From the NCBI RefSeq assembly GCF_003334315.1, contig NZ_QOWR01000009.1: a stretch of 64,000 bases of DNA, one strand, 5' to 3'. The position numbers and the translations under genes are program-made. Numbering within the stretch: position 1 is the first letter of the stretch; the number at the start of each line of letters is the position of its first letter. Below are positions 1-1,919 of the stretch, in pieces. The notes below the pieces were generated by a model. It made no database searches and was not told where the DNA came from. It worked only from the letters and a program-made list of their open reading frames with translations. Origin of the DNA: Escherichia coli. GTDB taxonomy: Bacteria > Pseudomonadota > Gammaproteobacteria > Enterobacterales > Enterobacteriaceae.

Positions 1-38
1 AAGTCGCTGTCGTTCTCAAAATCGGTGGAGCTGCATGA

Positions 39-1919
39 CAAAGTCATCGGGCATTATCTGAACATAAAACACTATCAGTAAGTTGGAGTCATTACCCGCC
101 CTTTAAACTGGAATTTCGCATTACCGTAAAAGACGGTATTCGCCATATCCGCGCCCTCGCCAACCGGGTACTGAATAAAGAAGGCGAAGTCGAACGTCTC
201 CTCGGCATCAATATGGATATGACCGAAGTGAAACAGCTTAACGAGGCATTGTTTCAGGAAAAAGAGCGCCTGCACATTACGCTTGATTCCATCGGTGAAG
301 CCGTGGTCTGTATTGATATGGCGATGAAAATTACCTTTATGAATCCAGTGGCGGAGAAGATGAGCGGCTGGACGCAGGAAGAAGCGTTAGGTGTTCCGCT
401 CCTGACGGTGTTGCATATTACTTTTGGCGACAACGGACCATTAATGGAGAACATTTACAGTGCCGACACCTCACGTTCCGCGATCGAGCAAGATGTGGTG
501 TTGCACTGTCGGAGCGGCGGCAGTTACGACGTGCATTACAGTATTACGCCGTTAAGTACTCTGGACGGCAGCAATATTGGTTCGGTTCTGGTGATTCAGG
601 ACGTTACCGAATCACGCAAAATGCTGCGCCAGCTGAGCTACAGCGCCTCCCATGATGCACTGACGCATCTCGCCAACCGCGCCAGTTTTGAGAAACAACT
701 GCGTATCCTGCTGCAAACGGTAAACAGTACACATCAGCGACATGCCCTGGTGTTTATCGATCTTGATCGCTTTAAAGCGGTGAATGACAGCGCCGGGCAT
801 GCGGCGGGTGACGCTTTGCTGCGCGAACTGGCGTCGTTAATGCTGAGTATGCTGCGTTCCAGCGACGTGCTGGCGCGACTCGGTGGGGATGAATTTGGTC
901 TGCTGCTACCAGACTGTAATGTTGAAAGCGCGCGTTTTATCGCTACACGCATTATCAGTGCCGTGAATGACTATCACTTTATATGGGAAGGCCGTGTGCA
1001 TCGGGTAGGTGCCAGTGCCGGGATTACCTTGATTGATGACAACAATCATCAGGCGGCAGAAGTGATGTCGCAGGCTGATATCGCCTGTTATGCCTCCAAA
1101 AATGGTGGCCGGGGCCGGGTGACGGTTTACGAACCGCAGCAAGCTGCCGCACATAGCGAACGGGCGGCGATGTCGCTTGATGAACAGTGGCGGATGATTA
1201 AAGAGAATCAGTTGATGATGCTCGCCCACGGTGTCGCTTCGCCACGGATCCCGGAAGCGCGTAATTTGTGGCTGATTTCACTTAAGCTCTGGAGTTGCGA
1301 AGGCGAGATTATTGATGAACAAACATTTCGTCGTAGCTTCAGCGATCCGGCACTTAGCCATGCTCTTGACCGACGGGTATTCCACGAATTTTTCCAGCAG
1401 GCCGCAAAAGCGGTTGCCAGTAAAGGCATAAGCATCGCCCTCCCCCTTTCCGTTGCCGGTTTGAGTAGCGCCACGCTGGTGAATGATCTGCTTGAGCAGC
1501 TGGATAATAGCCCTCTACCACCACGGTTATTACATCTGATTATTCCGGCAGAAGCGATTTTAGATCACGCAGAAAGCGTGCAAAAACTGCGGCTGGCGGG
1601 ATGTCGGATAGTGCTCAGCCAGGTGGGCCGCGATCTGCAAATCTTCAACTCGCTGAAAGCGAATATGGCAGATTACCTGCTACTTGATGGTGAGTTATGC
1701 GCCAACGTGCAGGGTAATTTGATGGATGAGATGCTGATTACGATTATTCAGGGGCACGCTCAGCGACTCGGGGTGAAGACTATAGCCGGGCCAGTCGTTT
1801 TACCCTTAGTGATGGATACGCTTTCGGGCATCGGCGTCGATCTGATTTATGGTGATGTGATTGCCGATGCCCAACCGCTGGATTTGCTGGTGAATAGTAG
1901 TTATTTCGCGATTAACTGA
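39..1919 (+). CDS. dgcE: C-terminal part of a PAS-GGDEF-(degenerate)EAL diguanylate cyclase; gene begins upstream of the window. Reading frame is broken near positions 36-81 (see findings).
   Basis: Frame-3 translation from 39 gives a PAS C-terminus (FKLEFRITVKDGIRHIRA), then ORF 213..1919 with a second PAS, a GGDEF motif (LARLGGDEFGLLLPD) and an EAL-like C-terminal domain. Position upstream of alkA matches yegE/dgcE. Confidence 0.8.
   Translation, partial: QSHRALSEHKTLSVSWSHYPPFKLEFRITVKDGIRHIRALANRVLNKEGEVERLLGINMDMTEVKQLNEALFQEKERLHITLDSIGEAVVCIDMAMKITFMNPVAEKMSGWTQEEALGVPLLTVLHITFGDNGPLMENIYSADTSRSAIEQDVVLHCRSGGSYDVHYSITPLSTLDGSNIGSVLVIQDVTESRKMLRQLSYSASHDALTHLANRASFEKQLRILLQTVNSTHQRHALVFIDLDRFKAVNDSAGHAAGDALLRELASLMLSMLRSSDVLARLGGDEFGLLLPDCNVESARFIATRIISAVNDYHFIWEGRVHRVGASAGITLIDDNNHQAAEVMSQADIACYASKNGGRGRVTVYEPQQAAAHSERAAMSLDEQWRMIKENQLMMLAHGVASPRIPEARNLWLISLKLWSCEGEIIDEQTFRRSFSDPALSHALDRRVFHEFFQQAAKAVASKGISIALPLSVAGLSSATLVNDLLEQLDNSPLPPRLLHLIIPAEAILDHAESVQKLRLAGCRIVLSQVGRDLQIFNSLKANMADYLLLDGELCANVQGNLMDEMLITIIQGHAQRLGVKTIAGPVVLPLVMDTLSGIGVDLIYGDVIADAQPLDLLVNSSYFAIN

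What the first reader, a model, noticed from the sequence alone, without database searches (positions are those of the whole stretch)
1..110. All three forward frames are closed within the first 81 nt, inside the dgcE coding region
The GGDEF/EAL ORF clearly continues upstream of its first ATG as a PAS C-terminus (frame 3, open from 39), but frame 3 has TGA at 36-38, frame 1 has TAA at 79-81 and frame 2 has TGA at 59-61. Frame 1 (1-78) also reads PAS-like, so a single 1-bp indel around 60-80 would join the frames. Either this strain carries a dgcE frameshift or the sequence has an indel here (an AAAA run lies at 65-68).
Basis: seen in the sequence. Interest (0 to 1): 0.4.

Follow-up and report, generated by a model that had tools for sequence, protein, structure and literature searches.

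The report
IS1 insertion junction splitting dgcE
The three stop codons are real, but they lie in the last 96 bases of an ordinary IS1 mobile element inserted into the E. coli dgcE gene, so this is a routine insertional knockout and not a frameshift or sequencing error.

Summary
The stop codons at 36-38, 59-61 and 79-81 exist. However, window 1-96 is not dgcE. It is the last 96 nt (positions 673-768) of a 768-bp IS1, identical except for one silent base. The frame-1 peptide is the C-terminus of the IS1 transposase InsB, and TAA 79-81 is its natural stop. IS1 ends at base 96, exactly at its terminal inverted repeat. dgcE resumes at base 97, which is K-12 dgcE nt 1496 (codon 499, inside the second PAS domain). 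From 97 onward the window is colinear, without gaps, with intact E. coli genomes for the remaining 63.9 kb. No 1-bp indel is needed or present.

dgcE is therefore split by IS1. The window holds only the 3' part (end of PAS2, PAS3, GGDEF, degenerate EAL). I found no promoter-like site in the first 400 bases and no Shine-Dalgarno-like sequence before the in-frame starts.

This exact junction was not found in 5,426 complete E. coli genomes, in GTDB representative genomes or in JGI metagenomes. At least four other independent IS1 events hit dgcE elsewhere. Published genetics (MASE1 and PAS deletions are null) predict loss of DgcE-driven curli and cellulose induction. The finding is ordinary and of low interest. 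The upstream side of the IS1 lies outside the window and could not be seen.

The parts
1..96 (+). Right-hand 96 nt of an IS1 element (IS1 positions 673-768); the rest of the element lies upstream of the window
   Evidence: BLAST against the 768-bp IS1 of strain cM8a gives 96/96 aligned with 1 mismatch, A->G at window 78, which is silent (CAA->CAG). The 1-97 query matches 71,818 places in 4,965 of 5,426 E. coli genomes, and the listed hits are annotated IS1 family transposase.
1..81 (+). Last 26 codons and stop codon of the IS1 transposase gene insB (frame 1)
   Evidence: The translation is KSLSFSKSVELHDKVIGHYLNIKHYQ*. In cM8a the annotated IS1 transposase CDS ends 15 nt before the IS1 end (CDS end 3081, IS1 end 3096). 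That corresponds to window 81.
74..96 (+). IS1 right terminal inverted repeat (ATCAGTAAGTTGGAGTCATTACC)
   Evidence: It matches the last 23 nt of the cM8a IS1 with one mismatch, and homology to IS1 stops exactly at base 96. The 23-bp length of the IS1 inverted repeat is from my own knowledge.
97..105 (+). CGCCCTTTA: the presumed right-hand copy of the 9-bp target-site duplication (inferred; the left-hand copy would lie outside the window)
   Evidence: These are the first 9 nt of dgcE sequence after the IS1 end. Three other IS1::dgcE alleles carry duplications of 9 to 10 bp. Not verifiable here.
97..1919 (+). 3' fragment of dgcE: nt 1496-3318 of the K-12 gene, covering the last two bases of codon 499 through codon 1105 plus the stop, in frame 3
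   Evidence: Window 97-1000 is 100% identical to K-12 dgcE. Residues 500-1105 are identical to WP_000043759.1 of NZ_CP104114.1 and differ from K-12 at 4 residues. The region is colinear with no gaps.
97..212 (+). C-terminal remnant of the second PAS domain of DgcE (residues 499-537)
   Evidence: Pfam PAS_3 matches residues 452-537 of K-12 DgcE, so the insertion at codon 499 falls inside it.
213..1919 (+). Longest ORF with a start codon in the fragment (568 aa, from Met538)
   Evidence: There is no ATG, GTG or TTG in frame 3 between 39 and 212, and no AGGAGG-like sequence before the first in-frame starts.
282..617 (+). Third PAS domain (residues 561-672)
   Evidence: Pfam PAS_4, E = 2.1e-10, on K-12 DgcE; coordinates converted to the window.
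645..1115 (+). GGDEF domain (residues 682-838) with the GGDEF motif intact
   Evidence: Pfam GGDEF, E = 2.3e-45. The window ORF reads ...VLARLGGDEFGLLLP....
1293..1865 (+). EAL domain (residues 898-1088), described as degenerate in the literature
   Evidence: Pfam EAL, E = 8.8e-21. Degeneracy is stated in PMC6510439.

Best explanation
The window starts inside an IS1 insertion sequence that interrupts the diguanylate cyclase gene dgcE (yegE) between nt 1495 and 1496, at codon 499 in the second PAS domain. IS1 has the same orientation as dgcE. Bases 1-96 are the end of IS1, comprising the insB C-terminus, its stop codon and the right inverted repeat. Bases 97-1919 are the undamaged 3' part of dgcE. 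The three stop codons are therefore the natural insB stop plus two out-of-frame stops within insB. The most likely history is a simple IS1 transposition with a 9-bp duplication (CGCCCTTTA). That would leave a complete 768-bp IS1 and dgcE codons 1-501 just upstream of the window; this step is inferred. The expected consequence is that no full-length DgcE is made. The 5' product (MASE1, PAS1, half of PAS2) lacks the catalytic domain. The 3' fragment lacks its promoter, has no Shine-Dalgarno-like sequence before its in-frame starts, and lacks the MASE1 and PAS regions needed for activation. [quoted passage not shown] This consequence is inferred from published genetics and was not tested. My confidence that this is an IS1/dgcE junction is about 0.97. 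The confidence given below is for the full statement, including the simple insertion.
For: IS1 identity: 96/96 nt align to IS1 positions 673-768 with one silent mismatch. There are 71,818 matching places in 4,965 of 5,426 genomes, and the listed hits are annotated IS1 transposase. The frame-1 peptide ends at the stop codon of the annotated IS1 transposase CDS. The breakpoint coincides to the base with the IS1 terminus at window 96, which is the signature of transposition. dgcE homology starts at 97 = K-12 nt 1496. Window 97-46096 aligns to an intact genome with 0 gaps at 99.81%, and 46097-64000 at 99.37%. The insertion lies in Pfam PAS_3 452-537. The uninterrupted site is present in 5,022 of 5,426 genomes, so the interrupted state is derived. 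Precedent: IS1 is inserted at other dgcE positions with duplications of 9 to 10 bp in cM8a, LF4-1 and TUM1881. No promoter-like site occurs in 1-400, and no Shine-Dalgarno-like sequence precedes the in-frame starts. Function: internal deletions of MASE1, or of the three PAS domains, give the null phenotype for CsgD and matrix production (PMC6510439).
Against: The upstream side (the rest of IS1, the left junction, the duplication and the dgcE 5' part) lies outside the window. It could not be recovered from any collection. One family of genomes (EC12 and relatives) shows IS1 in dgcE next to a deletion with no duplication, so a simple insertion is not guaranteed. Loss of function is inferred. Shigella flexneri dgcE, a pseudogene, still contributes measurable c-di-GMP (PMC11327459), so residual activity of a 3' fragment cannot be excluded.
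Confidence: 0.75

Rival explanations
1. The IS1/dgcE junction is real, but it is the scar of an IS1-mediated rearrangement (adjacent deletion, inversion or recombination between two IS1 copies). In that case the DNA upstream of the IS1 is not the 5' part of dgcE.
For: In EC12, EC15, EC18, XH987 and XH989, IS1 abuts dgcE nt 2566 with no target duplication and is followed directly by yegJ. This means the dgcE 3' end, alkA, yegD and yegI were deleted. IS1 is present in many copies per genome (median 10 places), which gives substrates for recombination. The upstream side cannot be seen.
Against: Three of the four other IS1::dgcE alleles are simple insertions with duplications of 9 to 10 bp. The 63.9 kb downstream is fully colinear with intact genomes, and the window holds no second IS1 copy.
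Confidence: 0.2
2. Assembly artefact: the window starts at a contig end, or at a chimeric join, where a collapsed IS1 repeat was wrongly attached to dgcE, and the strain actually has an intact dgcE.
For: The exact junction is absent from every collection searched. Draft contigs often end in IS copies (my own knowledge).
Against: The join falls precisely at the last base of the IS1 inverted repeat. A random chimera would have roughly a 1 in 768 chance of that. dgcE is a recurrent IS1 target in finished genomes.
Confidence: 0.04
3. One reading: a 1-bp frameshift or sequencing indel around 60-80 inside continuous dgcE coding sequence.
For: Only the pattern of stop codons in the three frames.
Against: K-12 dgcE shows no similarity to window 1-96. 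Those bases are IS1 at 99% identity. The frame-1 peptide is InsB, not PAS.
Confidence: 0.01

Closest known systems
IS1 (IS1A/IS1B-type, 768 bp) of E. coli and Shigella
   Same: The last 96 nt match at 95/96, including the insB C-terminus, its stop codon and the right terminal inverted repeat. The exact 97-nt variant occurs at 100% identity in many E. coli genomes.
   Different: Only the right end is visible. This insertion site (dgcE nt 1495/1496) was found in none of 5,426 complete E. coli genomes, nor in GTDB representative genomes or JGI metagenomes.
DgcE (YegE) of E. coli K-12, the MASE1-PAS-PAS-PAS-GGDEF-EAL(degenerate) 'master' diguanylate cyclase
   Same: Residues 500-1105 are present. 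They are identical to the allele WP_000043759.1 and differ from K-12 at four residues (S946A, E968D, M1058V, E1085D). The downstream neighbours alkA, yegD and yegI match.
   Different: The gene is cut at codon 499. MASE1, PAS1 and the first half of PAS2 are not contiguous with the catalytic part.
Other IS-disrupted dgcE alleles: IS1 in strains cM8a, LF4-1, TUM1881 and the EC12 family; the Shigella flexneri 2457T dgcE pseudogene
   Same: The same gene is inactivated by a mobile element, in the same IS1 orientation. dgcE is reported as a pseudogene in several pathogenic E. coli strains (PMC11327459).
   Different: The insertion positions differ (nt ~668, 1647, ~2706, 2566). In S. flexneri the element is reported as an IS110-family element, and that pseudogene was shown experimentally to retain some c-di-GMP output. 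Nothing was tested for this allele.

Membership tests
IS1 insertion sequence | Terminal inverted repeat of about 23 bp at the element end, with homology stopping exactly there | tested here: met
   Window 74-96 matches the right inverted repeat of the cM8a IS1 at 22/23, and IS1 homology ends at base 96. The left repeat lies outside the window.
IS1 insertion sequence | Encodes InsA and InsB (InsAB' made by programmed frameshift) | tested here: inconclusive
   Only the last 26 codons of insB and its stop codon are in the window. They match at 95/96 nt and end at the annotated CDS end. insA and the frameshift site lie outside the window.
IS1 insertion sequence | Target-site duplication of 9 bp (occasionally 8 bp) flanking the element | not testable with these tools
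   The left junction is upstream of base 1, and the source genome was not found. The candidate right-hand copy is CGCCCTTTA at 97-105.
IS1 insertion sequence | Element length of about 768 bp | not testable with these tools
   Only 96 nt are in the window.
DgcE (YegE) orthologue | Near-identical sequence and conserved neighbourhood (udk - dgcE - alkA - yegD - yegI) | tested here: met
   Window 97-1000 is 100% identical to K-12. alkA, yegD and yegI follow in the same order. udk is upstream and not visible.
DgcE (YegE) orthologue | GGDEF domain with an intact GGDEF active-site motif | tested here: met
   Pfam GGDEF, E = 2.3e-45, on the K-12 protein. The window ORF carries LGGDEFG.
DgcE (YegE) orthologue | A single continuous ORF encoding MASE1, three PAS domains, GGDEF and EAL | tested here: not met
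   The ORF is broken at codon 499 by IS1, so this is a disrupted allele (pseudogene) of dgcE.

The most novel reading that the evidence does not exclude
The 3' fragment is transcribed by read-through from IS1, or from a cryptic promoter, and translated from Met538 or a later start. This would yield a soluble PAS3-GGDEF-EAL(degenerate) protein freed from MASE1/RdcA control and from MASE1-dependent proteolysis. Such a protein would still make c-di-GMP, so the IS1 insertion would rewire DgcE signalling instead of abolishing it, as suggested for Shigella DGC pseudogenes.
Probability: 0.06. Interest if true: 0.4.

Novelty: already known. Interest (0 to 1): 0.08.

Why it matters
It matters mainly for annotation. 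The region should be labelled as an IS1 right end followed by a dgcE pseudogene fragment. It should not be labelled a frameshift or a sequencing error, and no base should be 'corrected'. Biologically, it predicts that this phylogroup-A-like E. coli strain has lost its top-level trigger for curli and cellulose matrix production. It also adds one more independent IS1 event to a gene that is repeatedly inactivated in natural isolates. Neither element is new, and the mechanism is textbook insertional inactivation.

Tried and rejected
1. I looked for the same junction elsewhere to recover the upstream side. A 120-nt junction query against 5,426 complete E. coli genomes gave 0 places covering at least 80%. 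An exact 40-mer search gave 0 hits in GTDB representative genomes and 0 in JGI metagenomes (the first attempt was not sent).

2. I looked up exact predicted products: the 568-aa and 566-aa 3' ORFs, and a 502-aa 5' product predicted for a 9-bp duplication. None is on record.

3. I looked for a way to express the 3' fragment. There are no sigma-70-like sites in 1-400. No in-frame start codon lies between 39 and 212, and no Shine-Dalgarno-like sequence precedes the first in-frame starts. An InsB-DgcE fusion is excluded, because insB stops at 79-81 in frame 1 while dgcE is in frame 3.

4. I looked for a second IS1 copy in the window that might indicate an inversion or a composite element. There is none.

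5. Literature searches for IS1 together with dgcE or yegE found no report of this allele.

6. I considered the frameshift/indel model and rejected it.

7. I considered whether the 96-nt length points to a contig end left by a particular assembler k-mer. I could not decide this and make no claim.

Full report
**Observation**

The sequence of window 1-110 was read directly and translated in all three forward frames.
- Frame 3 is open from 39 to the stop at 1917-1919. Its first ATG, GTG or TTG is ATG 213, which gives the 568-aa GGDEF/EAL ORF.
- The A run is at 66-69, one base off from the reported 65-68.
- Closure of all three forward frames within 81 nt occurs in 12.8% of such windows across this 64-kb sequence. 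It is notable only if the stretch were continuous coding sequence, and it is not.

**What bases 1-96 are**

- A megablast of 1-97 against 5,426 complete E. coli genomes found 71,818 places in 4,965 genomes, with a median of 10 per genome. The listed hits are annotated IS1 family transposase.
- Aligned to the complete 768-bp IS1 of strain cM8a, window 1-96 corresponds to IS1 positions 673-768. There is one mismatch, A to G at window 78, which is silent (CAA to CAG).
- In cM8a the annotated transposase CDS ends 15 nt before the element end. That places the CDS end at window 81, exactly the TAA at 79-81.
- The frame-1 peptide KSLSFSKSVELHDKVIGHYLNIKHYQ* is therefore the C-terminus of InsB and not a PAS segment.
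- The other two stops are out-of-frame stops inside insB.
- Window 74-96 is the right terminal inverted repeat, and IS1 homology stops exactly at base 96.

**What follows base 96**

- Window 97-1000 is 100% identical to dgcE of K-12 MG1655 and many other strains.
- A three-way alignment shows K-12 dgcE matching from base 97 onward and unrelated before it.
- Using the K-12 annotation, base 97 is dgcE nt 1496, the second position of codon Ser499. This explains why the gene continues in frame 3.
- A Pfam scan of K-12 DgcE gives MASE1 19-294, PAS 303-419, PAS_3 452-537, PAS 555-672, GGDEF 682-838 and EAL 898-1088. The break therefore lies inside the second PAS domain.
- The window keeps residues 499-537 of that domain, the third PAS domain, an intact GGDEF domain (the motif LGGDEFG is visible) and the EAL domain.
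- Residues 500-1105 are identical to the DgcE of strain USDA-ARS-USMARC-51408 and differ from K-12 at four positions.
- Window 97-46096 aligns to that genome without a single gap at 99.81%, and 46097-64000 at 99.37%.
- There is therefore no indel in the dgcE fragment and no other rearrangement in the window. No second IS1 copy is present.

**Is the allele known?**

- A 120-nt query spanning the junction found no place covering at least 80% in any of the 5,426 complete genomes.
- The uninterrupted site is present in 5,022 of them, so the interrupted state is derived and rare.
- An exact 40-mer across the junction is absent from GTDB representative genomes and from JGI metagenome contigs.
- Exact look-ups of the predicted products also found nothing.
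- dgcE is nonetheless a repeated IS1 target. I mapped four other events:

| Strain(s) | IS1 position in dgcE | Target-site duplication | Type |
|---|---|---|---|
| cM8a | after nt ~668 | TGTGCTGTT | simple insertion |
| LF4-1 | after nt 1647 | AACGAGGCA | simple insertion |
| TUM1881 | near nt 2706 | about 10 bp | simple insertion |
| EC12, EC15, EC18, XH987, XH989 | after nt 2566 | none | IS1-adjacent deletion; yegJ follows directly, so the dgcE 3' end, alkA, yegD and yegI are gone |

- The way the search joins pieces could only find IS1 copies in the same orientation and nearby, so this count is a lower bound.

**Mechanism**

*Shown:* an IS1 right end abuts dgcE nt 1496 at the exact element terminus, which is the signature of transposition.

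*Inferred:* a complete IS1 and the 5' 1,504 nt of dgcE lie just upstream, with a 9-bp duplication CGCCCTTTA. Under that model the 5' product would be DgcE 1-501 plus one Arg and then a stop.

The alternative, an IS1-mediated deletion or inversion, has a precedent in the EC12 family and cannot be excluded. I give it about 0.2.

**Expression of the 3' fragment**

- No sigma-70-like site was found in 1-400.
- No in-frame start exists between 39 and 212, and none of the first in-frame starts has a Shine-Dalgarno-like sequence.
- insB stops in frame 1 at 79-81, so no InsB-DgcE fusion is possible.
- From my own knowledge, IS1 insertions are classically strongly polar.

**Functional consequence (inferred from the literature)**

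- Pfiffer et al. (PMC6510439) showed that DgcE is the top-level trigger of CsgD, curli and pEtN-cellulose production.
- The same study showed that internal deletion of MASE1, or of the three PAS domains, gives the null phenotype. It also showed that the activating GTPase RdcA binds MASE1.
- An allele that separates MASE1, PAS1 and half of PAS2 from the catalytic part should therefore be null for this pathway, even if some 3' product were made.
- There is a caveat. In Shigella flexneri, dgcE is a pseudogene, yet it still raised c-di-GMP when expressed, and its deletion lowered c-di-GMP (PMC11327459). Residual activity is therefore possible but unlikely here, and I put it at about 0.06.

**Comparison with what is known**

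Both components are known at essentially 100% identity. Insertional inactivation by IS1 is textbook, and dgcE pseudogenes are documented in pathogenic E. coli and Shigella. Only the particular insertion site appears unrecorded in the collections searched.

**Verdict**

However, the frameshift/indel explanation and the 'PAS-like' reading of frame 1 are wrong. This is an ordinary IS1 junction and is of low interest.

Noticed in passing
window 24408-35386: There is a block of sugar-alcohol catabolism genes between yegS and fbaB. It holds a HAD hydrolase, two RbtT/DalT-family transporters, xylulokinase, D-arabinitol 4-dehydrogenase, two regulators, an SDR oxidoreductase and an FGGY pentulose kinase. 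The assignment rests on gap-free colinearity with NZ_CP104114.1. From memory, K-12 carries the galactitol (gat) operon at this position; I did not check this.
   Followed up: partly
window 54405-58199 and 58209-61841: The two large DUF4132 genes (yehH-like, 1264 aa, and yehI, 1210 aa) are open reading frames in the window. In the closest complete genome, NZ_CP104114.1, they are annotated as pseudogenes with an internal stop and a frameshift.
   Followed up: partly
L004 (NZ_CP060933.1, strain EC12) 3571-4338; also EC15, EC18, XH987, XH989: IS1 abuts dgcE nt 2566 with no target-site duplication and is followed directly by yegJ. This indicates an IS1-adjacent deletion of the dgcE 3' end, alkA, yegD and yegI, shared by five clinical isolates from China.
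   Followed up: partly
L002, L005, L006 (strains cM8a, TUM1881, LF4-1): There are three further independent IS1 insertions in dgcE, at nt ~668, ~2706 and 1647, each with a duplication of 9 to 10 bp. All have the same orientation as the gene, although the search design could only detect that orientation.
   Followed up: yes
window 1935-2030: The dgcE-alkA intergenic region contains REP-like imperfect palindromes (e.g. GCCTGATGCGACGCTAACGCGTCTTATCAGGCCTAC and CCGGATAAGGCGCTCGCACCGCATCCGG), seen by eye.
   Followed up: no
window ~8694-9082 (by colinearity with L003 12598-12986): Two tandem Ibs-family type I toxin genes (ibsA and a second ibs copy) lie between yegL and mdtA, as annotated in the colinear reference.
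   Followed up: no
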